Of a stretch of 64,000 nt of DNA, positions 21,217 to 61,828 are shown piece after piece; the first letter of the stretch is position 1, and each line of letters starts with the position of its first letter. The DNA is from a virus (lineage: Duplodnaviria > Caudoviricetes). The position numbers and the translations under genes were made by a program. Location: positions 70,924-134,923 of IMG/VR virus record IMGVR_UViG_3300028914_000062; one strand, 5' to 3'. Under the pieces are notes generated by a model that did not search any database, was not told the DNA's origin, and saw nothing but the letters and a program-made list of their open reading frames with translations.

Positions 21217-21714
21217 TTATACCACAGGAATAAAGTGCGTATACTGACGAATATGAAAGTTCATCTGATCCGCTGCAACTTTTTTCGAGGCTTCCAGCCA
21301 CTCATAAGCCTGTTTAACATAAAGTCTTACGGTATTAGTTACAAAATCCTCCAAGAAGATTTTGGCTTCGACATCTCCATTAATATCAGCAATATCAATA
21401 GCCTCGTAACAGAGTTTCTGGAAACTTTCAATCATATGCAAATTATCTGCGAATATTCCCTCAAGAGAATCATAATTTTCTGCAAAGCCATCAAGAGGCA
21501 GTCTTATTGGACGATCGTTCTTAGACAGCAAGAAGTCAGAAAGTAGATCTGCCCACGCCGGGAATATATGGGCATAACTGTGATGATATAAATCTTCAAT
21601 CTCATTAAAATAATGATATCCAAGATTGTATGCCAAATTATCTGCCTCTGCATTCATATTAAAGCATTCACGCAGAAGTTGACACATTTTATTATAAGTT
21701 ACTTCTGTTAACAC
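21217..21714 (-). CDS. Ferritin/Dps-like protein (165 aa)
   Basis: Four-helix pattern with E/H ligands (EADNLAY..HHSYAH..WADLLSDFL..RP..IDIAD..AKIFLEDF). Confidence 0.6.
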   Translation of the reverse strand: MLTEVTYNKMCQLLRECFNMNAEADNLAYNLGYHYFNEIEDLYHHSYAHIFPAWADLLSDFLLSKNDRPIRLPLDGFAENYDSLEGIFADNLHMIESFQKLCYEAIDIADINGDVEAKIFLEDFVTNTVRLYVKQAYEWLEASKKVAADQMNFHIRQYTHFIPVV

Positions 21715-21734
21715 AAAACTTCCCTCCTTCTCAA

Positions 21735-23513
21735 TTAAATCATTTTATTTTCAGAGACGTTGTTTCCGGCATCTATACTAGCTGCCGTAGCATCATTCTC
21801 CACATCGTTCTCATCCATCTTAGGACGACCAACGGGATTTTTCTCTTCGTCATTTGCGTCAACCAGGGCCACTTTTTCCAATTTATCATATATATCCATA
21901 GAATTAATATAAGCATCTATGGCTTCTGCGTCTCTCACAGTGAGATCTTCCGAAGAAAGCAGTTTTGGCATGAGGAATTTATCTCCGCTCATAACCGCCT
22001 CTTTCAAGAATTTCTTCTCATTTTCCATTGTATAAATTCCGCCCCAAATGCGGATTTTCCAATGGTATTTAAGACCCAGAAGTTTATTGATAATTGTATT
22101 TAAAGCGTCTTCAAATTGACGCGTGACAAAGTCGTATTGAGATTCGGCCAAGAGTTGTGCACCCTTGACCTGTGCAATGGAGGGTTTGTCGGACGCAATT
22201 ATAATACCACCTTCACCAGATGTGGTGATAAAGTTTTTAATTGCGCTCGAAACCATATCGTTACTATTTACCGTATTCGGCAAAGACAATAATTGAATAT
22301 TCTTTAACGGAGCGAAGAACGCTTCGGTGTTTGTAGAAGTCATCGCATTAAATGCGTCCTGTAAGCCCTTAAGGATCTCAGGATTAATCTTTGTTTGAGT
22401 TTTACCAGGCATTGCATTATCAACATATTCCGCCTCACCAGTAAGAATGGCGGTAAGCGGAGTGCTTGCAATAAGACCTGCCAATGCTGAATAATCTGTA
22501 AGTTCTTGCAAATTCAAGAATAAAGATGCTGTATCCGGCACAACCCACACATGAGAGTTATCACTGCAGAAAGTATAACAGATCTCTTGCGGCAGCTGTA
22601 CCCAGAACATATAGGTACGATCCTTGGATTCCCAATTCGTTGCCATTTCTTTACCTTTATATGTAGATTTAAATTTCGTAGCAGCACTTGGAATAAACTT
22701 CATCGCCCCTTCAGAAGTCCTCGATATAACACCGGTTTCCAACATCTATTCCCAAACATTCTAGATATATTCAGAATATTGTTTGGGACTAAAGGCCGGG
22801 TTCATGAAGATCATCATATTAAAAGAAGCAATATATCCATGTTGACCAATACCGGTAAGTTTTACATATTGAGTAGGAAGCTTTTCAAGAGTTACATAAT
22901 GCACTTCATCATCGTTCATTGCATAACGTACAATATAAGTACTTTTGCCATCTCTTTTAACTTCCAGAGCTTTCTGTTTCAAAGTTCTAGCAACGCCCAA
23001 AACTTCAAGCCATTTATCAACAAGTGCGTCTTCTCTCTTAAATTCTTTGCTCTTATATTCCTCAGGCTCCAACAGTTCTGGTACTTTATAATATTTATAC
23101 GCCGGAATGTCACAAGCCTCGCGCAAAATCTTATAATAAAGATATTGAGTTGCAGAAAGCGCCCACGAAGAGCTCCTTAATGTTAACTCAGAAGATTGAG
23201 GGGCCTGAAGCGCCTTAACAATCTCTTCTTTGGATCGAGTCGCCGGCAAAGTATTAATCATCTTAAGTCGTTCATTTTGTAAGAATGGATTAAGACTATT
23301 TAACGTACCAAGCACAGGCAGCGCCACTTTCGAAGTGCCATCTGCATATTGACTCATCTACTGATAAATCTTTTCGTATCCTTCTTTTAAATCCGCAAGA
23401 GTTACTTTTTGATTCTCATTACTCATCTAAAGAGTATCGGAAGATTCATTCGCTATCGGTTCCTTCTTCTTCGGTCTCCCCCTCGACTTCTTCGTCTCCT
23501 TTTCCTTCTCCAT
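21735..23513 (-). CDS. Portal protein (592 aa, code 15)
   Basis: Between terminase and protease; joined across 3 TAGs; RGRPKK at N-terminus and GRPK near C-terminus. Confidence 0.8.
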
Positions 23514-30188: not shown

Positions 30189-30229
30189 GTGAAATATCAC
30201 TTGACAAATAGAAAGGGATATGGTATAAT
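30189..30229 (+). promoter_or_regulatory. sigmaA promoter with operator GTGAAATATCAC
   Basis: TTGACA(30201)-17-TGnTATAAT(30224). Confidence 0.85.
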
Positions 30230-30271
30230 AAAGGGGATAAAGAGAGTTTTCAAAAAAATTTTTTCAAAATA

Positions 30272-30312
30272 GTGATATAGTACTTGACAAATAGGGTACT
30301 ATGTGCTATAAT
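30272..30312 (+). promoter_or_regulatory. Second tandem sigmaA promoter with degenerate operator GTGATATAGTAC
   Basis: TTGACA(30284)-17-TGnTATAAT(30307). Confidence 0.8.
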
Positions 30313-31001: not shown

Positions 31002-33800
31002 TTGCCCGTTAGACAAAACCTGTATTAGATCTATAAGCTGCCTTCCTCGCTTATAGTGAAAAATAATTGCAACATCCCCTCATACACAATCAAACAGGCC
31101 AGAGCCGAAAATACGCTTATTTCCATCAGTGATAACTTGGTCTTCCATCAGATTAGAAAGTACTACAACGATTTACGGACGCCCGATTAGATTTACGACT
31201 ATGTTTAGTCCTTGCGCTCCAGTTTAAGATATTATCGTCGTGAAGGCTTAACCAAAGAAGCCAATAACATTAACAACCAGATCACTTCTGTTCTCTTTGT
31301 GAAAGATATCATCAACATCGAGGTTATTAAAAAATCCGATTACAAACAATTTGGTGTGAAAGGTTTTGACGTCAATGGCATTCACTATAGACGGTTCTGC
31401 TGCGGATCTGGTCAAATGCGAAGAAACACAATCACCTTTATCAACGAGGAACTTTACGACACAATCTTTACCAATCTAATGTGTGACTTGGGTCACCGAA
31501 TTAGTGAATTTAATCTGGCAAAGTATCATGCATATTTTGCGTTGGCATTTTCCTCAGTGCTTTGGGTCAGAACCCCAAGGGTTTGTGTTATCAAAGATTA
31601 TTATCGCACCCTTAAAGAGGAACCGGTCGATTTTATTACTAAAAAGAACGGCAAGTCAATAGTGGAACCTCGCCACATGGATATCGAACTTAACTGCGCA
31701 GATGGTCAAGGGCTTATTGATCCATCATTCGCTGCACAATGGGCAGAAGACATGGCACAAGATTATGTTCCTTCGTCTTTTGTGGTACGAAGCGTATTTA
31801 TCAAAGGCAATTTGGTCCCATTTGATTTTAGAGCATACGCCAAATCGTAGGGAATTGACAAAATATATGACAAGTGGGGTAGGTCTTATCCCATAGACGA
31901 AATCGATGTCATCTTAAGCGAATCGCAGTTCAAGATGCACAAGTATTACAGCTCTTGGCAAGAATACAAAAAATATGCCGACGCTGCTGATATTAAATGG
32001 GGCGTTGCGAGATATAATAGAAAACGCGATGACGAGTTCGTACAAGCGAATTATCAATATATTTAGACCCTGGGTATTAACAAAGAAGATACCATCAAAA
32101 TGATCTAGCCGACGATCGATTGGATCCATAAGATTTGCTCCGGTGATGAACTATTTGGTTTATTGTTTGCAATAGGCGGAGGGTGCGGAGATTTAAGCTA
32201 CGACTCTTTATTACGAGCGACCGAATCCACTGCCATAAAGGCCGTCGTTAAGAATCACGAAATGATTCACGATGGATATATTCAGGCCAAAATGTATAAA
32301 ACCATTGCGCGTCTTATTGAGAAAGCAAAGATTGGTAAAATCTGGGTCCACGGCAATTATCAATTTATGATTTCTGATCCTCTTGCGCAATGTCAAAGTG
32401 CTCTTGGCTTGGAACCGAAAGGTTGCTTGGGCAAAGATGAAATCTGGTCCAAATTCTGGACAGAGAGATATCCCGAAGGCCGCACCATTGACCTTTGCCG
32501 CAGCCCGATGATCGATGAACATGAACACAATCCCATGCTTTCAATTGCATAGAATGAGACCGTTGATGAATGGTTTAAATATATCAAGAGTGGCATAGTG
32601 TTTAATACTTACGATACCAGTACCTTGAGAGCAGAAGATGCCGACTTTGATGGCGACATTGTGTTTTCTACTGACAACGATTACTTTATCAATGGCGCTC
32701 ATAAAGACCACAATATCATTACTTACGAAAAGGGCTCCGCTCCACTGCAAAAGGTTACTCTGGAGAACCAGGTTAAAACCGATATACGGGGACTTGGGAC
32801 TGGTGTTGGTGGATTCAGCAATTGTGCCACAATTATTGAGACCATGAAAGCACAGTTTTTACAAGATAATCAAAAGTCTCAATATGATGAATTGTGCCTC
32901 AGAAAGAAGCTTCTTCGAGAGATTGTGGGACAAGAGATCGATCGCATCAAAGGTTCTGCTGCTCCCGTCCTTCCCTCTGAATGGAAGCATTTTGAAACCA
33001 TTAACGAAGACGACGATGATGCCACCAAGGCAGAGAAATACCGTCACAATTCAATGGTTCTTTCCAAGAAGCCTTACTTCTTCAGATATCTTTATCCAGA
33101 GTTAAATCAGAAATATAAGCGCTATGAGAATGCTTATAATACGATTGCTCAAGCTCAGTTCGGTGCGAAGTTTAAGAAAGTCCTTGGCAAATAGAATAAA
33201 ACTCCTACTGAACTTCAACTTGTAAAAAGATTTTACAAGTTCAGTCCTCTACTTGATTCTCCCTGTACGATGAACAACATCTGTCACCTTTTCGAACACG
33301 AAGACTTTAGAATCAAGTACGATAGAGAAAACATTTCTCTTCTCCCCACTTTCGACGATGAGTTCGAATTTGATCCGGAGAAGTTAACATAGATCAAAAA
33401 AGCATACAACATATTCTCTTCGAGGATGCAGCTCCATGCCTTGGAAAGAGCCTGGGATATCTACAATACCACAGACTCCACAGCGTCGCTTCCTTACTCA
33501 ATTGAAGAAGAAGATTACGTCAGAATGAGAAAAACTCTTCTTGATCTCCTTCGCACCAATTGTTGGGATATCATGCGCGGCATCTCCTCAAAAGAGTTTC
33601 TGTATTACTGCGGACAACTATCCAAAATTTACAGACAGTTCAACTGGGGCTTTGCCTGGGATATGCTTGGAGAAAACATTATTGATTTAATCCCAGAAGG
33701 AGAAACAGTGGTTCCCGTAGAAGATCCAAATGGACAAGAATACTTGGGCAAAACTTATATTCTTAAGTCTGTCCCTCATGAAAAGGAGGAAACGCCGTGA
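31002..33800 (+). CDS. YonO-like single-subunit two-barrel RNA polymerase (932 aa, code 15)
   Basis: Catalytic DADFDGD, ADGQGLI, IKG, SQFK, NYQYI(TAG)TL, RSP and EID; four track fragments in one frame; 9 TAGs. Confidence 0.9.
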
Positions 33801-43678: not shown

Positions 43679-43756
43679 TTTAAAACCATCACAGAAAGGA
43701 GGTGATGCCCATGCTTGTGGTTAATTAGGCAAATACCAATAAAATAAAAGTTTCAT

Positions 43757-43812
43757 TGTTCCATAACTTGGGGATCAAAATGATCTTAAAATTTCACCAC
43801 CCAAGTGGAACA
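43757..43812 (+). promoter_or_regulatory. Structured 5'-UTR element, copy 1
   Basis: Three-helix structure covarying with 46743-46797; abuts RBS. Confidence 0.6.
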
Positions 43813-43827
43813 GAAGGAGAAATCATC

Positions 43828-44862: not shown

Positions 44863-44920
44863 ACCGTCGAGGGGCGAGACGTAAAACCCGACCACAAAAA
44901 TATTTAAATTAAAAGGAGAA
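44863..44920 (+). repeat. 58-bp intergenic repeat with mini-pseudoknot and RBS (copy at 51733-51790)
   Basis: One mismatch between the copies. Confidence 0.85.
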
Positions 44921-46726: not shown

Positions 46727-46742
46727 TTCTTTTATTGTGCCC

Positions 46743-46797
46743 GTTCTCATAATTTGGGAGTCAAAATGACTTTAAAATTTTACAACCCAAAGAGAAC
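46743..46797 (+). promoter_or_regulatory. Structured 5'-UTR element, copy 2
   Basis: Compensatory changes versus 43757-43812. Confidence 0.6.
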
Positions 46798-46813
46798 AGA
46801 AAGGAACATTACC

Positions 46814-49561: not shown

Positions 49562-51724
49562 ATGAACAAACAGCCTAGTTTCCAGTTTCATCTCCATCAG
49601 AATGGAACAATCATCTTTAAAGGCAATATCGCAGAAGAATCTTTTGAGGTGAAGGTGCCCAAGTCTGAGGTGCTTAACCCCAAAACAATGCAAAGCTTCC
49701 AAGGACAGTATTATCCTTCCAACGCTGAACGAGGCGGTTGGTTTGATATGCTAACTGGAAAATTCCCCTTGTCCCAGGAAGAAATTAGTGAATGTAATTA
49801 CCGGTATAAATTTTGGAGCGGAGAACTCCGGAGAGAATTTAATGGGTGTTACATCAAGAAAATTGAGCCCTCGATTTTAGTGTTCTTCTGTATCACCTTA
49901 AACACAGAAAAAAGCGCCCAAGAGATATATGAGCAGGGTCACTTCATGAAGAAATGGAAATATGAAGTGCCCTATGTTATCGTATACCATAAAGGGAAAG
50001 TTTACATTTATGATACGGTAATTAAAGAAGTCAAGTATCTTCTCCAATATAAAAAAGAAGCAGACATTTTAAATGCCTACCTATCTTGGGAGTGCCCTTT
50101 TACCGACTTCAAGAAAACAGGAGAAACGTGGGGTGATTATATTTCCTACGTTGGAATTACCAGTTCCGGAAGATCGGCCTGGTGGTGCAATTCCAATATG
50201 ATTTCTCTCCTACGTAACGCAATTTATGATGCAAGAGATCACGCTATTACTGCTAATGGTCCCAAAAAATCGATGGGAGAGGGATTGGAAGAAAAATTCT
50301 ACGACGCTTTACACACGCCGATTCCAGAGGGACTAATTAATGCTTCTCTTAGGTCCGCGATCATTACCAAGTATCAAGATCTCCTAATAATTAATTACAA
50401 AAATGGGCAAGGATATATTGGTAGATTTGTTCTCGATGGAACCAAACATTTTTCCAATTTTGTTAAGCGAGGAGATAATTGGTATTATGAAAAGCATAAG
50501 GTTCGTGATCTTTACGGTTATGATCTCATTCAATGGAATCCCGAGGTCGCCAAAGGAACCGTTTATGAACCGCTATGTCGCACAAAGCATTTTGGAGATA
50601 TTAAACAGCAACCCGGCATAATGCTTCATTACTTCCAATACTTAAATGGAAAATTTGATGGGGATCGAGCTATGGTTGAACAATATATCAAAGAATTTAT
50701 AGCATTTTTCGACAATGATTTATTGTATTCAATCTATGAAATTAACCCCGCAACCAATTCTTTAATCTCCATGTATCAGACAACGATTTCTTTGTATCCG
50801 GTTCGATACTGGATAAGGGTTCTCTCGCATTCGCATCAAAAACAATTTACAAATTCTTATGATTGGTATGGTGTCAATAAATATCAAATTTCAAAATTTG
50901 TACAATTATTAAAGCTACTCAAACAAAACCAAAAACCTAGTTATTATCAAGGCCTTAATTATCGATCTGCTATGCAAAACTTATTCAATTTCATTGCAAA
51001 ATTTTGGTACAATAATGAAACGGCAGATTTGCGAGGATTAAGCAATTCAAAATTTGATCTTTTGTTCGATTGGATTTATGAATTAAAAGATTATCCGTGG
51101 CCATACTATGGAGAGAATCTAATTCCCGCCAACGTGGATAAAGAAGCTCTAATCCGTTTCTGGCAAAAAGAAGGGTATACTCCCCAAGACCTGCGCAATT
51201 GGAGAGATACAATTCAAATGATGCGCCAGGTCACTCGTGGTGAACCTCTAACGTCAAGTGTTCTGAAAATTCGTCTAGTTGATTTACACACGATTCACGA
51301 TCGATTAGCAGCACAAATTCACGAATTTGAATCTAAATCGGCGGCTGAAAAATGGGAAATTCAAAAACCGAATTGGGAAAAATATGTATATGAAGATCCG
51401 ACATATACAATTATTATTCCCGAAAAACCAGAAGATCTCACAAGAGAAGGTACATTGCTGCAGCATTGCGTCGGATCTTATATTAACCGTGTCGCCAACG
51501 GCAGTGATATCATTTTGTTCTTAAGGAAGAAGGAGAAACCAGATGAACCGTTCTATACTCTAAATTTGTCACCGGATGGTACCAAAATTGAACAAGTTCA
51601 CGGCCACCATAATAAATGGCCGGCTATGAATCCAGAAATCTTACCTTTCTTGGATAAGTGGATTAAGAAATTTAACATTGAAGGATGGGAGGGAATTAGA
51701 AATGTAAAAAGAGACCATTATTAA
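49562..51724 (+). CDS. PcfJ-domain protein, paralog 1 (720 aa)
   Basis: C-terminal EG..L.HCVGSY..R...G...ILFLRK...P..PFYTL...Q.HG..N. Confidence 0.85.
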   Translation: MNKQPSFQFHLHQNGTIIFKGNIAEESFEVKVPKSEVLNPKTMQSFQGQYYPSNAERGGWFDMLTGKFPLSQEEISECNYRYKFWSGELRREFNGCYIKKIEPSILVFFCITLNTEKSAQEIYEQGHFMKKWKYEVPYVIVYHKGKVYIYDTVIKEVKYLLQYKKEADILNAYLSWECPFTDFKKTGETWGDYISYVGITSSGRSAWWCNSNMISLLRNAIYDARDHAITANGPKKSMGEGLEEKFYDALHTPIPEGLINASLRSAIITKYQDLLIINYKNGQGYIGRFVLDGTKHFSNFVKRGDNWYYEKHKVRDLYGYDLIQWNPEVAKGTVYEPLCRTKHFGDIKQQPGIMLHYFQYLNGKFDGDRAMVEQYIKEFIAFFDNDLLYSIYEINPATNSLISMYQTTISLYPVRYWIRVLSHSHQKQFTNSYDWYGVNKYQISKFVQLLKLLKQNQKPSYYQGLNYRSAMQNLFNFIAKFWYNNETADLRGLSNSKFDLLFDWIYELKDYPWPYYGENLIPANVDKEALIRFWQKEGYTPQDLRNWRDTIQMMRQVTRGEPLTSSVLKIRLVDLHTIHDRLAAQIHEFESKSAAEKWEIQKPNWEKYVYEDPTYTIIIPEKPEDLTREGTLLQHCVGSYINRVANGSDIILFLRKKEKPDEPFYTLNLSPDGTKIEQVHGHHNKWPAMNPEILPFLDKWIKKFNIEGWEGIRNVKRDHY

Positions 51725-51732
51725 TCCCAATT

Positions 51733-51790
51733 ACCGTCGAGGGGCGAGACGTAAAACCCGACCACAAAAATATTTGAATTAAAAGGAGAA
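51733..51790 (+). repeat. Second copy of the 58-bp intergenic repeat
   Basis: Matches 44863-44920. Confidence 0.85.
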
Positions 51791-51797
51791 ACAAACT

Positions 51798-54401
51798 ATG
51801 TCAAACATCAAAGTCAACCAGAACGTCGAACTCAAGCCCCTTGTCCTCAAAACTAAAGCCCGCTGCCTCCATTATCATGACCCCAACACGAAGCTCCAAG
51901 ATTCGATCATAATTGAGCAGCAATGGGATCCCAGAGCGTACACCGTCGAAAAAATCGATAACTATTTGGCTATCAACTTCTGGAGATATTCAGATGGTTA
52001 CTACTCAGATCCGTACAGGGTGTCGTCGTTCAATTCCCGTACGAATACACACATGGTACCGATTGGCAACAAGTACCCTGGATCCAGAATTCAGTTAAGA
52101 ATTTATCAAAATCGTAAAGTCGCATTGGTTCATGAACATAGAATCAATGTTGACGGTCACGATCAGATTAAGACCTTTGTGCAAAACGACATGGATGGAG
52201 GACACCTTGTCTACAGATCCTGGGGAGCCAGACACGAGCCCGGTGTGGATGCTACTTTGTTCTTTAACTCGATTAAAGATATGACCGACAAAGAGATTGA
52301 AGCTGCCGCAAAGACATTAAGAAAAGCTGAGGTCACTCAGTTAATCAATTATGTAGGCGGTCGATTAGCTTCTGATATATCTGATTCAAACGAGATCATT
52401 GCGTTCAATCAGACAGATCGATGCTATGTTCATCTGGGGGCCAACACTATAGATCGAGTTAAAAAATTCTTTGGAGATAGTATTCCTAAGAATTATGGCA
52501 AAATCACGAACCTAGAGAGCTTAATGAGGTTCTCGTACTATAAAGATGCCAATACCGATGCCAGCATCAAAAAGAACGAGGATATGTTCAAAACTCTGAT
52601 GGAACCTTACAAAGAGCAGATCCGGAGATTACAACCAAGAACCCAGTTCTGGTTCAGAACCGATAGTTATATTGGATGCTATATCAAAGGTAGTCAAGAT
52701 AACTATTATTGGGACCGTACGCGTAATGGGTCTGCTTGGGTATTCTTGTATAATTACAAAACCAGGTCTAGGATCTTGATGAAATATAATATTGAAACAG
52801 GATCTTATACTAAGAACGTACCATCATTAAGCGCATTGGATGATTTCCACTTTGGGCCGACCTGGGACTGGAGAGGTAATTATGGTCAGCAGCAGCCTCC
52901 AATGGACAAGCCTGCGTACTCCGTGGTTATCGCTAATAATCTCCCGATTAAAGAGTTGTTTGCTAATACCAATATCGGATTTTTATTAGAAAACAACCCC
53001 GATTTCAAGCTCCGGAATTTGCACGTTTATACGCGCAATGGAACAAATCCTCAGATACCTATATCCCAGATTATTACCAAAGAATCAATCCAAGAATGGG
53101 CGCTTATCCTCTTAGGCTCTTCCAATAACCCAGTTTTGGAAATGCTCTTGAAAAGCAAAATGTACAATTTGTACGATTTGGCTTTAAAGGATATGACGAA
53201 CCAAGGTGGAAGATTCGACGATATTGACGCAAAGAAAGCTCGTCATTCTTGGTATGGCCGTACTCAGTATTTCCCATACCATGGAAAACAGAAAAACCTT
53301 TCCAAGATGTTTGAAATGACGGTCGATCAGTTAAGAGTCTTGGACGAGCTATATGCAACCGTTAATAGAGACGATTATTATTGGAACAGTAACCACTATC
53401 GTCCGCATTGGCTGGACTCTGTTTTACATGTCCCGCTCTCAAGCTTGGATTTGGACACATTCAAGAAACTGTGTGAAATGAGTAAAGGCAACGATTATGG
53501 ATCATTGCCTGAGATGAACCTCAACGGTCTTAAACCCAAAGAGATCGTTAACACATTCTATATCTATAAGGATCATATGCAAGAATTCAAGGATTACTTG
53601 AATGCCAGAAAGACCTTACAGACAATTCAAGAAAGATTCCCTGATCGCTCCATTTTCAGTGAGAGAGATTATCCTCTTAAGCCGAAAGCGGGTAAAAAGT
53701 TTGTCAGGTTTATCTCTGGCATGACGGGCCAGGGTCGTTATGGATCACAGAGATTGAACACCTGGTATGATTTCCAGAACTATTATTCCAGTAATTATAA
53801 AAATTGCTGTGAATTTGTTCCAAATGTCGGCGTCAGTTTAACCTTGGGGACAATTGAAATGTTGAAGTATTTACACAATGATGCCTCTTTCTGGGCTTCT
53901 TTCTACCAAGATTCTACCAAGACCGAATCGTTCCAGAAAGCCTTGGAGAGAGTCAAAGAATACGTCTACGTCGATGAGGACATGGGGCTGGAAATGGTTT
54001 CTCCGAGCTCAATTCAGGATTTGAAAGCAGAAGGAGAAACTCTGCACCATTGTGTAGGATCTTATGTTGATTCGATCATCGGAGGAAAAGAAAATATCAT
54101 GTTCCTCAGAAGATCAGATATGCCTGGTGCCCCGTTCTACACGGTTGAATTGGTACCGCCGATGGATGACCACGGCGACATCTTGGATGAACATAAGAAG
54201 ATTATCAGACAGGTTCACTGCTATTACAACGGAGACCTGACTGAAGAGGGCCAAGACAAAGCCTATGAACAATCAAGCATGCCGGTCTATAACAAGAAAT
54301 TTAATATCGTTGAGTTCTTGTTAAAATGGGCCAAAGCCAAGAAGGACATCGACTCTCAGTCGATTAAAAGCAGATACGGCGCTCTCTGCGCTCTCAGATA
54401 A
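51798..54401 (+). CDS. PcfJ-domain protein, paralog 2 (867 aa)
   Basis: EGETLHHCVGSY...IMFLRR...PFYTVE. Confidence 0.85.
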   Translation: MSNIKVNQNVELKPLVLKTKARCLHYHDPNTKLQDSIIIEQQWDPRAYTVEKIDNYLAINFWRYSDGYYSDPYRVSSFNSRTNTHMVPIGNKYPGSRIQLRIYQNRKVALVHEHRINVDGHDQIKTFVQNDMDGGHLVYRSWGARHEPGVDATLFFNSIKDMTDKEIEAAAKTLRKAEVTQLINYVGGRLASDISDSNEIIAFNQTDRCYVHLGANTIDRVKKFFGDSIPKNYGKITNLESLMRFSYYKDANTDASIKKNEDMFKTLMEPYKEQIRRLQPRTQFWFRTDSYIGCYIKGSQDNYYWDRTRNGSAWVFLYNYKTRSRILMKYNIETGSYTKNVPSLSALDDFHFGPTWDWRGNYGQQQPPMDKPAYSVVIANNLPIKELFANTNIGFLLENNPDFKLRNLHVYTRNGTNPQIPISQIITKESIQEWALILLGSSNNPVLEMLLKSKMYNLYDLALKDMTNQGGRFDDIDAKKARHSWYGRTQYFPYHGKQKNLSKMFEMTVDQLRVLDELYATVNRDDYYWNSNHYRPHWLDSVLHVPLSSLDLDTFKKLCEMSKGNDYGSLPEMNLNGLKPKEIVNTFYIYKDHMQEFKDYLNARKTLQTIQERFPDRSIFSERDYPLKPKAGKKFVRFISGMTGQGRYGSQRLNTWYDFQNYYSSNYKNCCEFVPNVGVSLTLGTIEMLKYLHNDASFWASFYQDSTKTESFQKALERVKEYVYVDEDMGLEMVSPSSIQDLKAEGETLHHCVGSYVDSIIGGKENIMFLRRSDMPGAPFYTVELVPPMDDHGDILDEHKKIIRQVHCYYNGDLTEEGQDKAYEQSSMPVYNKKFNIVEFLLKWAKAKKDIDSQSIKSRYGALCALR

Positions 54402-54422
54402 TTAGTTAGGAGGTAAACCACA

Positions 54423-54443
54423 GTGTTTATTAGAGGACCTTAA
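54423..54443 (+). CDS. Micro-ORF MFIRGP-TAA
   Basis: AGGAGGT RBS; GTG start; shared IR(G/A)P-stop ending. Confidence 0.55.
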   Translation: MFIRGP

Positions 54444-54504
54444 TATAATCCAATGCTACATACCATTCCCCTATTAAAAAATAATAATAAAGGAGATTTG
54501 CAAC

Positions 54505-54684
54505 ATGAGTATGGAAGAAATGGTTTATAGGTTTAAAATTGAGCCCAGAGGAAGTTTTCGTGGTACCTACAGCTGGCTGGTCGTCTATGATAATTACGAA
54601 CAGAAATATGTCATGGACGGTCGTGCCTACAAAAAGTTTAAACATTCAATTGAAGTGTTTGAATATTTACAAAATAACTACTAA
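54505..54684 (+). CDS. Hypothetical protein (59 aa)
   Basis: AAGGAG RBS; not in track. Confidence 0.55.
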   Translation: MSMEEMVYRFKIEPRGSFRGTYSWLVVYDNYEQKYVMDGRAYKKFKHSIEVFEYLQNNY

Positions 54685-54700
54685 TAGGAGGAACAACAAC

Positions 54701-55138
54701 ATGAAAAAGATTTGTGTCAGCTGCAATCAGAAAGTCCGCTACAACGAGGAATGGGGCAAATGCTACAACGGCATCATCCACAAGGAATGTTTCCAAGAGG
54801 AAATCGTAGATAATCCTGAGGAATACTATGGGGACAAATATATTCCTATTCGCGAACCCAAATATCGCCTCAGAAAAATGATCCGACGCAATAAAGTGTA
54901 CCAGGCTATATACCGTAAGCTTACAGAAAAGCGTCGATTAATCGCCATGCTTGAAGAAAGCAATCGCATAATGAACAACCTCGCGTTCGTTAATGAATTA
55001 CATTATACCGGCGCGTTACGAGCTATAGAAGAAGGCAATAGGCAAGAGTTAATGTCTGAAATCTCGGCTCAAAACGTAGCGGTTCAACGCTACAAAGCTA
55101 TGGTTAACCACATGTGGAAACATGTAGAAAAAAAATAA
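54701..55138 (+). CDS. Zinc-finger-containing hypothetical protein
   Basis: AGGAGG RBS before MKKICVSC...HKEC. Confidence 0.6.
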   Translation: MKKICVSCNQKVRYNEEWGKCYNGIIHKECFQEEIVDNPEEYYGDKYIPIREPKYRLRKMIRRNKVYQAIYRKLTEKRRLIAMLEESNRIMNNLAFVNELHYTGALRAIEEGNRQELMSEISAQNVAVQRYKAMVNHMWKHVEKK

Positions 55139-55164
55139 AAAACAATAATAGGAGGAGAAGCACT

Positions 55165-57393
55165 ATGAACAACACTCAAAACACCCAGTCCAACAAAAAT
55201 ATCAAGGAGGAACAGAAAATGGAGAACAAGGCGATCAAAGCGAGATTTCTGGCAAATAGAGATTTGTCGATTGAGGTTATTTGCGATGGAGAAAAAATCT
55301 CTGTAAAAATACCTCACAACAGATTTGTGGGACCTAACGCCAGAGAATTTTACAGAACGGGATATTTTGGCGACAAATGGACCTATGTGAATTGTTTCAC
55401 CGGAAAAGAAAAACCCGTAGAAGTAAAAAATTACACTACGATAGATTATGACATGCGAGTACACTTATATGAGTTATTACCTAATAATAAGGTAATGGCG
55501 ATATTCTTAGACTTCGAAAGTACTCGTGCAACGGGTACGATCCGTCCCGTTGTAGATCGTATTTACGTCTTTGGCAATAACCATGTAATACATTATAGGG
55601 GATTAAGAGACTTAAGTCTGGGAAATCTTTCTAATGGGTATGTAGAAGATGTAAGGTTTGTAAAAGACTTGAAAAATAATTACCTTAGTAGTTATGGAAT
55701 ATATCCTTCTACTCAGCGCCCAGAGATAATGAATGCGATTTATCGCCATTTAAATCAAGAATCAAGCACCGCATACCGTGGTGAAGACAATCCCTATTTC
55801 TTAGAAAGAAATTATATTAATTATATCAGAAGTAGGGGTGGAGTCATGGCAACAAATAATCCCACTGTAGAGACCATGTATGCTGATCTATTGACTCGCC
55901 CCATTGTCTTGCCCACAGAAGAGCAAATAACCACAGCCAAAAATGAAAATTTAATAGCTGCAATTGGTGAGCGTATTGGCGATACGATTATGATTACCTG
56001 TAAACTTAGCACATATTACAATACGATACATAGGATTATTCTGAACAAAAAACACTGTTCTACGTTCAGTAAAAACGGAGGCGCTGAAGTTGGTGGTGCT
56101 CGCCGCTGGACTAATGACGATTGGCATTACGAATCGAGTCCCAGCCAATACGATTTGAAGAAGGTTAGTATTATTAATCTTACTTTGGATATGGTGAAAG
56201 GGCTGCCATATGAAAAAGCTGTGCGCGCCAAACACTTTGCTAAGGTTTGCAAAGAGCATCTGTCTCTCTTTAGATTAATGAGAAAATTTGCTTATCACCT
56301 TGGCCAAGATGCTTATTCAAACTCAGACAAAATGGCAATACAACACCTCATTTGGTGCTGCGATTCTGATGAGTGCGTTGCTCTCTTAACCAAAGCCAAT
56401 GGATTTCCCGCTTTTAAGATGTTCGGTGCTTATGGAAGGAGTATTACTATATCCGATCCGTTACACGAACTAATTGGTAAGGCCGATCCAATGGCTACTA
56501 GTTTAAACGCTGCTATTGGTTTAAATCATGAGCAGTTAAAAATGGCGGTGGAATTGGATAAGACTTACCGCCAATATGAAAGCCCCACCGCATACTACAA
56601 GGGAGCGAGCTATTACAGTGCGGTGCGGAGTGTTATTAGTAGTTATCGGTATTTCGTACACGGCAATACTAATGCAGATCTCAGATCCACGTCCAATGCA
56701 GATTTCAAAACCTGGATTGATTGGGCTAAAGACAGAGCCAGCCAAGGAGATAATGGTAATTTGAACTTTGGATGGGGATGGGATCGCGTGCTACCCGCTA
56801 ATCTTGATCGCATGGCTTTGGTTAGATTCTGGGCAAAGCACAATTACGGGTCTAGTGATATTCAATCCTTACTTGATTTGGTTAATATGAATTATCGTAT
56901 GACCCAAGTTATGCCTACTACTGAAGACTTCCGTATCCGTGATGTTGAAGACTTGCGTAGAAGACACGACCGAGCAGTAATTGCTCAACGCATGTTCGAT
57001 AACAAGAGTCAGTTGGAAAAATGGGAAATTACCAAACCCAAATGGGACAAATTCACATTCAAAAACGACGAGTACGAAATCATTCCTCCCGAAAAACCGG
57101 AAGAGATTGTAACAGAAGGTAGGGTTTTAAGTCATTGTGTTGGAGGTTACGTTGATCGAGTCGCCAGAGGTGAGACCATCATCTTATTCTTAAGGAAAAA
57201 GAATGATCCTACAAAACCGTTTTATACCCTTAATATTGATCCCGAGGGTAAAAGATTAATCCAGGCTCACGGTTATGGAAATAGGTGGCCCGCGACCGAT
57301 CCTGAAATCTTACCCTTCTTGGATGAATGGGTCAAGAAATTCGGATTTGAAGGTTGGGATTATATCCGTACCGTCAACCGTGATCACTATTAA
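55165..57393 (+). CDS. PcfJ-domain protein, paralog 3
   Basis: EGRVLSHCVGGY..ILFLRKK..PFYTL; C-terminus closely similar to paralog 1. Confidence 0.85.
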   Translation: MNNTQNTQSNKNIKEEQKMENKAIKARFLANRDLSIEVICDGEKISVKIPHNRFVGPNAREFYRTGYFGDKWTYVNCFTGKEKPVEVKNYTTIDYDMRVHLYELLPNNKVMAIFLDFESTRATGTIRPVVDRIYVFGNNHVIHYRGLRDLSLGNLSNGYVEDVRFVKDLKNNYLSSYGIYPSTQRPEIMNAIYRHLNQESSTAYRGEDNPYFLERNYINYIRSRGGVMATNNPTVETMYADLLTRPIVLPTEEQITTAKNENLIAAIGERIGDTIMITCKLSTYYNTIHRIILNKKHCSTFSKNGGAEVGGARRWTNDDWHYESSPSQYDLKKVSIINLTLDMVKGLPYEKAVRAKHFAKVCKEHLSLFRLMRKFAYHLGQDAYSNSDKMAIQHLIWCCDSDECVALLTKANGFPAFKMFGAYGRSITISDPLHELIGKADPMATSLNAAIGLNHEQLKMAVELDKTYRQYESPTAYYKGASYYSAVRSVISSYRYFVHGNTNADLRSTSNADFKTWIDWAKDRASQGDNGNLNFGWGWDRVLPANLDRMALVRFWAKHNYGSSDIQSLLDLVNMNYRMTQVMPTTEDFRIRDVEDLRRRHDRAVIAQRMFDNKSQLEKWEITKPKWDKFTFKNDEYEIIPPEKPEEIVTEGRVLSHCVGGYVDRVARGETIILFLRKKNDPTKPFYTLNIDPEGKRLIQAHGYGNRWPATDPEILPFLDEWVKKFGFEGWDYIRTVNRDHY

Positions 57394-57411
57394 TTAACAG
57401 GAGGAAACAAA

Positions 57412-57432
57412 ATGTTAATCAGAGGACCGTAG
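57412..57432 (+). CDS. Micro-ORF MLIRGP-TAG
   Basis: AGGAGG RBS. Confidence 0.55.
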   Translation: MLIRGP

Positions 57433-57501
57433 AAAAATACTTGGCTCCCTTTCCAGTACACCCAAATTTCAAAATAAAATTTAATTTAAAGGAGAATTAC
57501 T

Positions 57502-59658
57502 ATGAACTACGAAACTCTCAAAGCTTTATCCAACAGGTATGTCCGCGAAGATTATATCTACACCGAAAACGTGACCCGTGTAATCAAAGTATATAAAGAT
57601 AAGAAAATTGACTTGATTACGGGCCGCCCTTACTGCGGCGCTCTTATTCCTGGACAGACGGTTGTCGCCAAAACGGCGGGTGTTCCTTCCAATCATTTAC
57701 GATTCACAACCCTCGAATGGAAAGAGTCTGATAAAATCTTAATATGCGCTTCCTACGATGCATATTATGACAGCCAATCCAGCACTTATCATAGACAACT
57801 TATGGAATTGGTTGCCTTCGATGTCCGAAACAAATCTATTACCAGTTGCTATAGTTCTACGTTCGTAATGGAAAATAACGCAGAGATTAGCAAACGCAAA
57901 GATTGGAAAAACTGGATGTGGGACTATCATTATAGACTTCTTTTATCTGATGAAGATAAGGCTCGAATTTGTTCTAAGCTTTTTGATGAGCACAAAATTT
58001 TATCCAGCTTGCCCATGGCGTCCGGATATCCCGCGAGTTGGAGATGGGTGGATGTCAACATTCTTGCAGACGTATTTTTGTCTCATAGAGTTGGCCGCGC
58101 ATTACCAAAAGCCTTGCAAAAATACGAAGAAGCATTAACCGCTTCGCGTGATCTTGGTGAAGATCCTTATTCATGGCACGCTTTTAAGACAGAGCACGGT
58201 CCTCTTTTGGTTGGGGTTGATAAATGGGCCAAAACCAAAACTTATAAGTTGCTGTTCGCAGCAGATAAAGCTATCGCGGTTAGTGAAGTAGGGGGCGCCC
58301 TTAAGGTTTTGCGCAACAAAAATGAACACGAAGGAGCGGGTCTCACTTTTACAGCATCCAAAGAAATGCTAGAAGTTTTTAAAGGTACCAAATATGAAAA
58401 AATAATAGCAAAACCTTGGATGATGGAAATTCACAACCCTTTGGGAGTATTACTATCTTCTGATATGTTCGCAATTGAACATTTAATGGACACAGAGCCT
58501 TATTTTAAGCATATTTATGTTAAAGGATTCAAAAACAATTATGTGCCCACGAAATTAGAAGAAGTATTCGGTCCTACCAAAAGCAAGACTTCTTTCTTTG
58601 AAAGTTTGGGAATTAATAAAATGCAATGGTCTATGTATCTGCAGTTTATTAAACTATGCTGTAATAAAGTAGAAGAAGTTTTCGCCGCCCATGGGGTCCA
58701 AACACTAGATATTGGTTATAGCTTGTTTACATCTCGCATTCGGGAAGCCTTCTTTGATTGGAACTCCAAAAAAGCAAACATAGATTGGTTAAAAATACCT
58801 TTCCAAGCAATTAAAGCCCTAAAAGAGATTTTGGGACAAGATTCTATTGCGCATTTGGACAATAAGTCTTTTCAAATCTATTTAGATATGATTTATAAAA
58901 CTATGTATTTTCATCCCGGAGTCGACAGCCCTGTTTCTTGGAATCGTAGACTACCTTGTATTGAAGGTTTTCCTTGGTTCTGGGGAGGCAATGCTACAGA
59001 AAAGCTGGTAATTTGGGGCCGAGCCTTAAAAGAACATTGTTCTGTGTTCCCCGCTATGCAGCACGCTTCCGAACACTGGTTAAACGCAGATACTTTAAGA
59101 TATGCCGGTAATATAGTAGATACGTGTATAGACTACTACCGCTTAGTTGATACTATCAAACTTCTTAATCCTGAATTTGAATATTTAACCAAATTTAAAG
59201 ACGTCCCTGAGATCAACAGAGAACACGATCGTCTTGTTGCCATTGTCAACGCTTCAAAAGATAAATTATCTGAAGCTCAGTTTGATTCTTTAAAACGCAA
59301 ATGGAACAAATGGTTGTACGAAGACGAAGAATTTCAAATCGTGGCTCCCAATAAAGCATCTGATGTGCGTATAGAAGGACAAAATTTGGGACACTGCGTA
59401 GGAGGATATGTCAACAGAATAACTTCTGGTCAAACCAACATCCTCTTCCTTCGTAAGAAGAAAGATCCCAACGCCTCCTTCTATACCATAGAAGTAACCA
59501 ATGATGGGTATATTGTTCAGGTACATGGGAAAGGAAATAGGTGGCCCGCAACTAATCCAGAAGTTATTCCTTTTCTTGATGCTTGGGTAAAAGAAAAGAA
59601 ACTGGCCAATTGGGGCTCCATCAGAAATGTCAACAGTATGCACTACGGTAGAGTATAA
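57502..59658 (+). CDS. PcfJ-domain protein, paralog 4 (718 aa)
   Basis: EGQNLGHCVGGY..ILFLRKK..FYTIE..QVHG.GN. Confidence 0.85.
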   Translation: MNYETLKALSNRYVREDYIYTENVTRVIKVYKDKKIDLITGRPYCGALIPGQTVVAKTAGVPSNHLRFTTLEWKESDKILICASYDAYYDSQSSTYHRQLMELVAFDVRNKSITSCYSSTFVMENNAEISKRKDWKNWMWDYHYRLLLSDEDKARICSKLFDEHKILSSLPMASGYPASWRWVDVNILADVFLSHRVGRALPKALQKYEEALTASRDLGEDPYSWHAFKTEHGPLLVGVDKWAKTKTYKLLFAADKAIAVSEVGGALKVLRNKNEHEGAGLTFTASKEMLEVFKGTKYEKIIAKPWMMEIHNPLGVLLSSDMFAIEHLMDTEPYFKHIYVKGFKNNYVPTKLEEVFGPTKSKTSFFESLGINKMQWSMYLQFIKLCCNKVEEVFAAHGVQTLDIGYSLFTSRIREAFFDWNSKKANIDWLKIPFQAIKALKEILGQDSIAHLDNKSFQIYLDMIYKTMYFHPGVDSPVSWNRRLPCIEGFPWFWGGNATEKLVIWGRALKEHCSVFPAMQHASEHWLNADTLRYAGNIVDTCIDYYRLVDTIKLLNPEFEYLTKFKDVPEINREHDRLVAIVNASKDKLSEAQFDSLKRKWNKWLYEDEEFQIVAPNKASDVRIEGQNLGHCVGGYVNRITSGQTNILFLRKKKDPNASFYTIEVTNDGYIVQVHGKGNRWPATNPEVIPFLDAWVKEKKLANWGSIRNVNSMHYGRV

Positions 59659-59672
59659 TTAAAGGAGGAATA

Positions 59673-59699
59673 ATGATGAATTACATTCGAGGACCTTAG
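59673..59699 (+). CDS. Micro-ORF MMNYIRGP-TAG(TAA)
   Basis: AAGGAGG RBS. Confidence 0.55.
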   Translation: MMNYIRGP

Positions 59700-59721
59700 T
59701 AAAATATTTTGTAAAAAACAC

Positions 59722-59750
59722 TTGACAACCCAAAAATAATATGTTATAAT
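59722..59750 (+). promoter_or_regulatory. sigmaA promoter (no operator)
   Basis: TTGACA-17-TGnTATAAT. Confidence 0.8.
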
Positions 59751-59766
59751 AATGGAGGAAACAAAA

Positions 59767-60621
59767 ATGAACAAGAAAACCAACAACAGCATCACCATCA
59801 CCAGCGTTGCCACCGGCAAGACCACTCTCATCACCACCAAAACAAAAAAATCTAAGGAGGACAAAACTATGGGAGAAGTTCGTTTCACTGAGGCAGAGGT
59901 CCGTTCGCTTTCTGGTAAGGCCATCTTTAACAAGTATGGCAAATTGTCTAATGATGAAAAGGTTATCTTAACCTCGGATCAGAAGACGGTGTACTACACT
60001 TGGTATACTGACGAGGTCAACATCTCGCACGCCAATACCAAGTTGGGCCGCAAGATTTGGACAGTTGATATGCCCCCGATTATCACTTGTTGCAAAAATT
60101 GCCCCTGCGCCAAAGATTGCTACGCATGTAAGGGTAGACAGGCTCTTTGTAATTGCAAAGGCGCCTATTTGAGGAATTTGAGACTGTACAAAACTCACCG
60201 CGAAGAATTTGTTAAGTATATTCAGGGCAAGATTCAAAGATCCAAAGTTTTACAACACTTCAGGTGGTTCTCTGCTGGGGATATTGTGGATCCTGAATTT
60301 TTAGAATTTATGGTGGATACGGCAAAACAGTTCCCGAAGATTCGATTCTTGGCTTACACCAAGCAGTACGCAATTGTCAATACCTATTTAGATAAGCACA
60401 AAAAGCTTCCCACCAACCTGAATATTGTATTCAGTTATTGGGACAAAGAATGGCTTGTGCCGAACCCCTATCACCTGCCCACAAGCTATGTCGACTTCTA
60501 TGATAAGAGTCGCAATCCTAAATTACCCGAACAAGCAGTTCATTGCCCCGGTGGTTGCGAGACTTGCAAGGCTTGTTGGAATCTCAAGCCTGACGAGAGT
60601 ACTATTTTTCATCAGCACTAA
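59767..60621 (+). CDS. Gp88-like Cys-rich phage protein
   Basis: N.KLG, TC...CPC...CYA..G, FRWFSAGD, YTK, NLNIVFS and CPG.C..C..CW. Confidence 0.75.
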   Translation: MNKKTNNSITITSVATGKTTLITTKTKKSKEDKTMGEVRFTEAEVRSLSGKAIFNKYGKLSNDEKVILTSDQKTVYYTWYTDEVNISHANTKLGRKIWTVDMPPIITCCKNCPCAKDCYACKGRQALCNCKGAYLRNLRLYKTHREEFVKYIQGKIQRSKVLQHFRWFSAGDIVDPEFLEFMVDTAKQFPKIRFLAYTKQYAIVNTYLDKHKKLPTNLNIVFSYWDKEWLVPNPYHLPTSYVDFYDKSRNPKLPEQAVHCPGGCETCKACWNLKPDESTIFHQH

Positions 60622-60640
60622 TTTAAAGGAGGAATATATT

Positions 60641-60823
60641 ATGTCTATGGAAATTTATCTCAAGGAAATCTGTGGCAACAGCTATACCGAATTCGTTCGG
60701 AGGTTTGACGAGGGGAAAATTACGCTACGAGAAGCGTATATGACCCCCTACGAAGATGTGAAGGTCTATTTCGACAACGAATACGACCTGGAAGTAATAA
60801 CCCGATTCTATATCGGTGAATAA
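60641..60823 (+). CDS. Hypothetical protein (60 aa)
   Basis: AAGGAGG RBS before MSMEIY. Confidence 0.55.
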   Translation: MSMEIYLKEICGNSYTEFVRRFDEGKITLREAYMTPYEDVKVYFDNEYDLEVITRFYIGE

Positions 60824-60839
60824 TAAGGAGGATACCACT

Positions 60840-61481
60840 ATGAAAATGCAGTACAACCGTAACACCCGCGCTTTTGTTGGAGAGGACTCCATCGTCTACA
60901 GGATTTTTGATATCCGAGGGGACGAAATTTGCGACGATACAAAGCCCATTCCTTTGTATTCGATTGCTGTGCCCGATCTTCGCGTCGATCCGAATGACGA
61001 AGAACAGGTCGAACGTGCAGTCAGATTCTTCTCTGACAAAATTCAGAACTTCGGGTACGACTGCTCTGTTTGCCAGCACTGCACGAGAACTGGCGCTCTG
61101 TCAGGATGCCCGAAACAGGCGTCTGCTATTTACAAATCCCTTTCTGAAAGGGAAGATCCTGTAGAGGGTTGGAACGCCGAGCCCGTTGAATACATGAGCA
61201 ATATACAGGTGGGGGATCTTCTGGTACCTTTATTGGTTAGAGGATGGAACGTGCACACCTGTCCGTTATTTAGATTCAGATTCTGGACACAGGGAGCTCC
61301 GGACTTTATCCGATTTTTCAGAGCAACATGTTTCAGACTGAATGCACCGGACCAGTGGGGAATCATTGAGATACAAACCCTCAGCAAATACAAGGATAGG
61401 TTCGAGAATTTCTGGAAGGCTGTTTACGGAGACATCTTCCCATTATTCTGCGAAAGAAATGAAGACGAAGAAGACGAGTAA
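60840..61481 (+). CDS. Hypothetical protein with Cys motifs
   Basis: AAGGAGG RBS before MKMQYN. Confidence 0.65.
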   Translation: MKMQYNRNTRAFVGEDSIVYRIFDIRGDEICDDTKPIPLYSIAVPDLRVDPNDEEQVERAVRFFSDKIQNFGYDCSVCQHCTRTGALSGCPKQASAIYKSLSEREDPVEGWNAEPVEYMSNIQVGDLLVPLLVRGWNVHTCPLFRFRFWTQGAPDFIRFFRATCFRLNAPDQWGIIEIQTLSKYKDRFENFWKAVYGDIFPLFCERNEDEEDE

Positions 61482-61519
61482 CTCTCGTCTTCTTCTTTCT
61501 TAGAAAGGAGGTGATTATA

Positions 61520-61537
61520 ATGATTAGAGCTCCTTAA
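61520..61537 (+). CDS. Micro-ORF MIRAP-TAA
   Basis: AAAGGAGGTG RBS. Confidence 0.55.
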   Translation: MIRAP

Positions 61538-61786
61538 ATATTAATTTCCGGCGTCACCTAGTAATCTTTTAATTGCTTAACGGCAATTCGTGTCAAACCC
61601 CAAAGACACGTTAATAAAAATAAGCGAGGGAGTAGTATGTTGCAGTGTTAACTATAATATTTTTCTACCCCCCTACCCCCCTACCCCCCCCACCGGAGCC
61701 GCTTTCTTTTCTTCCCCCCGGCCTCCTCCTCGCCCTCCTCGCCCCCTTATCCTTCGCCCGATCCACAATTCCTCCCACCAAGACAA

Positions 61787-61817
61787 GAAAAAACCCCCGA
61801 TTTCTCGGGGGTTTTCC
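61787..61817. terminator. Terminator at convergence, possibly bidirectional
   Basis: AAAACCCCCGA/TCGGGGGTTTT stem with A/T tails. Confidence 0.75.
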
Positions 61818-61828
61818 CACTTGGACTC

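What the first reader, a model, noticed from the sequence alone, without database searches (positions are those of the whole stretch)
54423..61537. Family of RBS-equipped micro-ORFs ending IR(G/A)P-stop: candidate minimal ribosome-arrest peptides
Seen: MFIRGP-TAA (54423), MLIRGP-TAG (57412), MMNYIRGP-TAG-TAA (59673) and MIRAP-TAA (61520). Each has a strong SD and starts 14-38 nt after an upstream stop, and three follow PcfJ genes. Synonymous codons vary (ATT/ATC, AGA/CGA, CCT/CCG), which points to peptide-level selection. Established: SecM (IRAGP) and RAPP/RGPP-type peptides stall ribosomes, Pro-stop impairs termination, and stalled ribosomes block RNase J1 in Bacillus. Inference: these may be parked-ribosome elements that stabilise or punctuate early mRNA, or sensors/sinks of release factor. 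Two end in TAG, the codon this phage reassigns. After PcfJ paralog 1 the same slot holds a pseudoknot repeat, hinting at interchangeable roadblocks. I know of no description of this in phages.
Basis: partly seen in the sequence, partly recalled or inferred. Interest (0 to 1): 0.85.

Follow-up and report, generated by a model that had tools for sequence, protein, structure and literature searches.

The report
Amber-ended ribosome-parking mini-genes in phage
A gut phage that rereads the TAG stop codon late in infection puts tiny conserved genes ending Ile-Arg-(Gly/Ala/Pro)-Pro-stop, nearly always TAG, between its early genes; they probably park a ribosome that shields early mRNA until the phage's code switch releases it, an untested way of turning early genes off.

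Summary
All four micro-ORFs are real (the first starts with GTG) and far beyond chance. Related gut phages carry 27 distinct stop-ended versions in about seven intergenic slots. The motif widens to I-R-[G/A/P]-P-stop: codon third positions and flanks drift, the peptide does not. G, A and P are the three residues that keep ApdP arrest in Bacillus, and one slot has canonical R-P-P-P instead of a stop, so ribosome stalling is the likely selected property. Internal copies end in TAG in 18 of 19 versions, while 0 of 130 neighbouring early genes do. The genome reads TAG as Gln in late genes and has an intron-split CUA tRNA. Readthrough frames are not conserved and there is no anti-SD switch. Pseudoknots fill the same slots. 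Best model (0.35): a parked ribosome is a firebreak against mRNA decay and is released at the code switch; which side it protects is unresolved. Nothing was measured. The multi-copy class was absent from 50 related phage records. The scan earlier noted stop-gated RGPP leaders in other phages, with the opposite logic.

The parts
54408..54443 (+). SD (54408-54414) and micro-ORF fMet-FIRGP-TAA (54423-54443) after the 867-aa PcfJ gene; orthologues end in TAG
57399..57432 (+). SD and micro-ORF MLIRGP-TAG (57412-57432) after the 742-aa PcfJ gene
59662..59702 (+). SD and micro-ORF MMNYIRGP-TAG (59673-59699) followed by TAA, after the 718-aa PcfJ gene
59722..59750 (+). Perfect sigma-A-type promoter match (12/12, extended -10) between the third micro-ORF and the gp88 gene
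61505..61537 (+). SD and micro-ORF MIRAP-TAA (61520-61537) after the last + strand gene; TAA in all orthologues
54444..54488 (+). Unstructured A/C-rich, G-poor spacer (similar spacers follow the other internal copies)
51733..51769 (+). H-type pseudoknot-like element in the same slot after the 720-aa PcfJ gene; identical copy at 44863
   Evidence: fold is inferred from complementarity
61560..61818 (+). Operon end: hairpin, near-invariant hairpin/pseudoknot, C-rich G-poor tract (rut-like), hairpin that terminates the opposite strand
49562..59658 (+). Four long PcfJ-domain paralogues (720, 867, 742, 718 aa), each followed by a micro-ORF or a pseudoknot; TAG-free

Best explanation
Code-sensitive ribosome firebreak. 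(1) A ribosome loads on the micro-ORF through its strong SD, probably coupled to termination of the upstream gene [layout shown, translation inferred]. (2) With I-R-[G/A/P]-P on the P-site tRNA and a stop in the A site, peptide release is slow, so one ribosome parks; the ORF is too short for a second ribosome to collide and trigger rescue [inferred, about 0.75]. (3) The parked ribosome does the job that pseudoknots do in equivalent slots: it stops exonucleolytic decay at the end of a long early gene. I lean 55:45 to blocking 5'-to-3' RNase J (protecting downstream genes) over blocking 3'-to-5' nucleases (protecting the upstream gene) [inferred, about 0.5 for either]. (4) Internal copies end in UAG, so once the spliced CUA tRNA appears Gln is inserted, the ribosome moves on, protection is lost and early mRNA decays: the switch that turns late genes on also turns early genes down [inferred].
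For: Peptide selection: in one slot, 7 strain versions show 100% identity at codon positions 1-2, 60% at position 3 and 42% in the next 20 nt, with TAG in 7 of 7; Arg uses AGA, AGG, CGA, CGT and the last Pro CCT, CCG, CCC. The middle residue is only G, A or P, the three that keep full ApdP arrest in B. subtilis (PMC12992588). One slot has M-Y-K-V-R-P-P-P, the canonical RxP/P form. Pro-stop arrests are documented (NSP-stop and NAP-stop, PMC10987492; PMC3985003). TAG ends 18 of 19 internal versions against 0 of 130 early genes. A-site Gln relieves ApcA arrest, and any non-Pro relieves ApdA/ApdP arrest (PMC7897499). A CUA tRNA split by a 209-nt group I-like intron is in the genome. Readthrough products are unconserved, from one extra residue to fusions. 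Pseudoknots and micro-ORFs alternate in the same slots. Stalled ribosomes stabilise downstream RNA in B. subtilis (PMC3997798; PMC7509114).
Against: No stalling, ribosome or RNA data. RAPP alone is not sufficient for stable arrest of ApdA/ApdP, and their mechanism needs an A-site Pro; 5-8 residue peptides may drop off instead. The copies share ancestry, so the TAG count overstates independent events; this window has already lost one TAG. The terminal copy is always TAA. Elements co-segregate with the upstream gene (same element type in 7 of 9 upstream families, 4 of 10 downstream families) and sit before a promoter and at the operon end, which is awkward for the 5' version; trimming to the ribosome edge invites tmRNA rescue, which is awkward for the 3' version. 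In this genome a terminator-like hairpin (61467-61495) precedes the last copy. Other TAG-recoded relatives lack the class.
Confidence: 0.35

Rival explanations
1. Constitutive roadblock: the same parked ribosome, but TAG is kept only because RF1-only termination is slower than at UAA (or by descent); release at the code switch is a side effect.
For: TAA-ended, Pro-ended and pseudoknot versions exist and cannot sense the code; the 54423 copy tolerates TAA.
Against: TGA, also read by one factor only and used by 13 of 130 early genes, never appears; the terminal slot keeps TAA in all 8 versions while internal slots keep TAG.
Confidence: 0.15
2. Stall-triggered destruction or polarity: the parked ribosome recruits a ribosome-dependent nuclease or tmRNA/RNase R, or leaves a C-rich spacer open to Rho, so the element cuts or limits the transcript rather than protecting it.
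For: Pro-stop stalls cause mRNA cleavage and tagging in E. coli; spacers are unstructured and G-poor; B. subtilis Rae1 cuts in short ORFs (own knowledge).
Against: Interchange with pseudoknots fits a barrier better; spacers are short (24-90 nt) and A-rich; readthrough often ends at the next codon, so it would not cover a Rho site.
Confidence: 0.13
3. RF1 trap acting in trans: abundant early mRNAs hold RF1 on UAG-stalled ribosomes, lowering free RF1 so that the suppressor tRNA wins at late-gene UAGs.
For: Explains the TAG choice, the multiple copies and the indifference to downstream context; no release factor gene was found in the genome; termination-arrest complexes can contain a release factor.
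Against: Does not explain the TAA terminal copy, the RPPP version or interchange with pseudoknots; only two TAG copies here; the genome record is 81% complete by CheckV.
Confidence: 0.12
4. No real stall: only SD occupancy matters, and the peptide is an inherited duplicated cassette.
For: SD-only stabilisers exist in B. subtilis (SP82, cryIIIA); the cassettes recombine with one another (hybrid in L176).
Against: Codon positions 1-2 are fixed while position 3, N-terminal residues and flanks vary; substitutions stay within G/A/P.
Confidence: 0.1
5. Translational insulator or attenuator that sets expression of the next gene.
For: This is what SecM/Apd peptides do; some spacers hold short pyrimidine runs.
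Against: Masking the footprint gives no consistent change in pairing of the next SD; distance to the next gene varies 37-105 nt; one slot precedes a promoter and one has no next gene.
Confidence: 0.08
6. Lambda bar-like minigenes that drain host tRNA-Pro through peptidyl-tRNA drop-off.
For: Short SD-led ORFs do this in phage lambda; the phage has its own tRNA-Pro(UGG).
Against: Last codon varies among three Pro codons; 5-8 codons is long for toxic minigenes; Arg and Ile conservation is unexplained; no Pth or Pth2 gene found.
Confidence: 0.05

Closest known systems
RAPP/RGPP (RQH) arrest peptides ApcA, ApdA, ApdP; SecM (PMC7897499, PMC10987492, PMC12992588, PMC10951233)
   Same: Arg-x-Pro ending on the P-site tRNA, with x limited to G, A, P; Ile before Arg as in SecM.
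   Different: Stop codon rather than Pro/Gly in the A site; only 5-8 residues, no localisation signal; multi-copy between genes; no SD-hiding hairpin.
Termination-arrest peptides TnaC, PepNL, NanCL, NSP-stop/NAP-stop (PMC11890864, PMC10987492)
   Same: Predicted stall with a stop in the A site after Pro; PepNL shows that stop-codon readthrough can cancel an arrest.
   Different: Much shorter; the readthrough agent would be a phage suppressor tRNA, not a metabolite-dependent host tRNA; not a single leader before one regulated gene.
Ribosome-based mRNA stabilisers of Bacillus (ermC leader, SP82 polypurine, cryIIIA, hbs) and the EHEC esp six-codon mini-ORF (PMC3997798, PMC7509114, PMC8708949)
   Same: A ribosome held on a strong SD or short ORF acts as a nuclease barrier.
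   Different: Here holding would come from the nascent peptide without a drug, inside a polycistronic region, and be tied to a reassigned codon.
Stop-codon-recoded (code 15) gut phages (Borges et al., 10.1101/2021.08.26.457843)
   Same: TAG-free early genes, TAG-rich late genes, suppressor tRNA, predicted Bacillota host.
   Different: Recoding is described as a late-gene ON lock; keeping TAG as a deliberate stop that might switch early genes off did not appear in the passages read.

Membership tests
RAPP/RGPP arrest peptides | Arg-[Ala/Gly/Pro]-Pro as the last three residues on the P-site tRNA | tested here: met
   28 of 28 versions
RAPP/RGPP arrest peptides | Pro (or Gly) codon in the A site | tested here: not met
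   27 of 28 versions have a stop; one has Pro
RAPP/RGPP arrest peptides | N-terminal localisation or regulator module | tested here: not met
   0-3 variable residues between the start and the Ile
RAPP/RGPP arrest peptides | Stall opens a hairpin hiding the next gene's SD | tested here: not met
   No consistent change in SD pairing; most spacers have near-zero folding energy
RAPP/RGPP arrest peptides | Arrest shown by toeprint or reporter | not testable with these tools
   needs in vitro translation
Termination-arrest peptides (TnaC, PepNL, NxP-stop) | Conserved Pro directly before the stop | tested here: met
Termination-arrest peptides (TnaC, PepNL, NxP-stop) | Single leader ORF upstream of the gene it regulates | tested here: not met
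   Multi-copy, linked to the upstream gene, one copy with no downstream gene
Termination-arrest peptides (TnaC, PepNL, NxP-stop) | Release factor blocked; readthrough relieves arrest | not testable with these tools
   inferred
Ribosome-based 5' stabilisers (ermC, SP82) | Strong SD that binds a ribosome | tested here: met
Ribosome-based 5' stabilisers (ermC, SP82) | Located at the 5' end of the stabilised RNA | tested here: inconclusive
Ribosome-based 5' stabilisers (ermC, SP82) | Longer half-life of downstream RNA | not testable with these tools
   needs half-life assays
Lambda bar toxic minigenes | Two to three codons with a fixed last sense codon | tested here: not met
   5-8 codons; last codon CCT, CCG or CCC

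The most novel reading that the evidence does not exclude
The phage uses its genetic-code switch in both directions: UAG locks late genes until the suppressor tRNA appears, and UAG-ended minimal arrest peptides hold ribosomes on early mRNA as protection (or hold RF1) until that same tRNA releases them, giving a translation-level early-gene off switch built from five-residue peptides.
Probability: 0.35. Interest if true: 0.85.

Novelty: new variant of a known kind. Interest (0 to 1): 0.7.

Why it matters
If true, it gives stop-codon recoding a second job, shutting early genes down as late genes open, and offers a direct handle on when the code switches during infection. It would also define the shortest natural arrest peptides and show that R-x-P blocks termination without a tunnel-spanning module. 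The first test is cheap: five to eight codons in a purified translation system.

Tried and rejected
Anti-SD switch: no consistent effect. Functional readthrough peptide or fusion: frames and lengths unconserved. General phage or bacterial family: no in-frame enrichment in IMG/VR (27 in frame, 35 out, about 40% expected; RxPP form 32 to 43); 10 of 401 genomes of one Bacillota class matched, fewer than the reversed control; 3 of 401 in a second sample; single-hit phages had no further in-frame copies seen; the metagenome scan saturated with chance hits. Other TAG- or TGA-recoded capsid relatives carry no equivalent micro-ORFs. No Rfam family in the window. No RF, Pth or Pth2 gene. MLVVN-TAG at 43711 is not a member: it lies in a pseudoknot-like element. 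The automated pseudoknot search was noisy and is not used as proof. The Woolstenhulme 2013 paper was not held. Ten literature searches found no description of this arrangement.
Full report
Observation. The four micro-ORFs are present as described, 21, 18, 14 and 38 nt after the upstream stop; the first starts with GTG. They are the only SD-led I-R-[GAP]-P-stop ORFs in the 134,923-nt genome. The full pattern never arose in 60 order-3 Markov simulations, and the bare motif was expected 0.4 times against 4 seen. Fifty capsid-related phage records had none.

Context. The window belongs to a tailed phage whose capsid relatives are Bacillus and Clostridioides phages and contigs binned mostly with Bacillota; close relatives come from gut metagenomes. 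The host is therefore inferred to be a Bacillota species. Structural genes need TAG read as sense, with Gln the commonest aligned residue. Following an earlier scan note, I confirmed a tRNA at about genome 21,560-21,850 (outside the window) whose CUA anticodon forms only when a 209-nt insert is removed; the insert matches the group I intron model weakly (E=5e-4, below the gathering score). The + strand block holding the micro-ORFs is free of in-frame TAG and contains four long PcfJ-domain genes, gp88 and small unknown genes.

Comparison with close relatives. Contigs fetched through PcfJ and DUF932 proteins give 28 distinct versions in about eight slots. The motif is I-R-[G/A/P]-P after 0-3 variable residues. 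Synonymous codons vary; in the best-sampled slot positions 1-2 are 100% identical, position 3 60% and the next 20 nt 42%. Selection is on the peptide, not the RNA. G, A and P are the three residues that keep full ApdP arrest in B. subtilis (PMC12992588), and the register (Arg two before the P-site Pro) is that of RAP/P with the stop in place of the A-site Pro. One slot carries V-R-P-P-P in an ORF that runs on for 37 codons, 14 nt after a gene, in two contigs: a canonical elongation-arrest motif in the same position. Arrest at Pro-stop is documented for NSP-stop and NAP-stop peptides and in E. coli tagging studies. Stalling is thus well motivated but not shown; published work also says RAPP alone is not always enough.

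The stop codon. Early genes in six loci end in TAA 117 times, TGA 13 times and TAG never (orthologues are counted more than once). Internal micro-ORFs end in TAG in 18 of 19 versions, the exception being 54423 here; the terminal slot has TAA in all 8. Shared ancestry inflates these counts, but third positions in the same elements have drifted while TAG has stayed. Reading TAG as Gln adds anything from one residue (TAG-TAA) to an in-frame fusion, with no conservation, so the readthrough product is unlikely to matter; passage of the ribosome is what changes. Gln in the A site relieves ApcA arrest, and PepNL is a precedent for readthrough cancelling a termination arrest.

Anatomy. Long intergenic regions read: upstream stop, then a micro-ORF or a pseudoknot-like element, then an unstructured A/C-rich spacer, sometimes a second structured element fixed 34-39 nt before the next start. 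Before the DUF932 gene, different strains have a micro-ORF or either of two pseudoknots. Every long PcfJ gene is followed by one of the two kinds. When neighbours are shuffled, the element type stays with the upstream gene in 7 of 9 families but with the downstream gene in 4 of 10, and those four always follow a PcfJ gene. One slot lies before a perfect promoter match and one after the last gene, ahead of conserved hairpins and a C-rich tract. No SD-masking switch was found.

Mechanism. The simplest account is a barrier to RNA decay made by one parked ribosome, removable when the code switches. The direction is open. Genomic linkage points to the upstream gene (a 3' cap); biochemical precedent points to a 5' block, since stalled ribosomes stop decay from the 5' side in B. 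subtilis whereas RNA trimmed to a ribosome's leading edge becomes a tmRNA substrate. A firebreak after a long, cleavage-prone gene fits both. I give 0.35 to barrier plus code-linked release, 0.15 to barrier without a code role, and the rest to stall-triggered cutting, RF1 trapping, SD-only binding, insulation and tRNA drain.

Distribution and novelty. The multi-copy class is limited to this lineage in what I could search; other recoded relatives lack it, and there is no enrichment across IMG/VR or Bacillota genomes. Scattered single look-alikes may be chance. It works like an RAP-type or termination-arrest peptide and like Bacillus ribosome stabilisers, but fails membership features of each. 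Ten literature searches found no description. Earlier scan notes on other phages describe leaders in which readthrough of a stop lets the ribosome reach RGPP before a Pth2 operon (unchecked); here the logic is inverted and no Pth2 gene was found. Verdict: real, selected, probably stalling elements; new variant of a known kind; function untested.

Noticed in passing
genome C1 about 21,560-21,850, minus strand (outside the window; locus L055): Suppressor tRNA whose CUA anticodon is formed only after removal of a 209-nt group I-like intron; its T arm is non-canonical, so ARAGORN misses it.
   Followed up: partly
window 43756-43815 and 46740-46805; relatives L040, L041, L044, L045, L048, L176: Conserved multi-stem RNA element fixed 34-39 nt before start codons; it travels with the downstream gene and has no Rfam match.
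   Followed up: partly
window 39341, 39749, 41130, 42673, 43705, 44863, 48628, 51733: Several unrelated H-type pseudoknot-like elements in early intergenic regions, most within about 5-26 nt of an upstream stop.
   Followed up: partly
window 61570-61620 and 61665-61780: Near-invariant hairpin whose CCCC loop could pair downstream, followed by a variable C-rich, G-poor tract; possible Rho site, ncRNA or DNA signal.
   Followed up: partly
window 30201-30312 and 31002-33800: The only perfect + strand promoter matches upstream of the early block drive TAG-containing genes first (9 TAGs in the 932-codon gene), so the 5' part of that transcript may be untranslated before the switch.
   Followed up: no
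L044:1698 and L462:2517: SD-led ORF starting M-Y-K-V-R-P-P-P in the same kind of slot: a canonical RxPP arrest motif in a phage.
   Followed up: partly
L340:1514 and L350 (one Bacillota genome): Two MTIRPP-stop micro-ORFs with strong SDs, each upstream of a relaxase-like gene of a mobile element.
   Followed up: no
L003, L006, L360, L409, L424: Single strong-SD I-R-[AP]-P-stop micro-ORFs in unrelated phages (L003 before a holin-like gene; L409 and L424 differ synonymously; L360 may be TAG-recoded). Could be chance.
   Followed up: partly
window 43022, 44928, 46814, 47839, 55165, 59767: Many early genes begin with an Asn/Thr/Lys-rich stretch followed by a second in-frame SD and start codon.
   Followed up: no
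genome C1 18,292-18,382 and 21,186-21,257, minus strand: Two tRNA-like genes with irregular anticodon loops.
   Followed up: no
L202, L203, L207, L220, L227 and L211, L219: The capsid-related family mixes standard-code, TAG-recoded and TGA-recoded members.
   Followed up: partly
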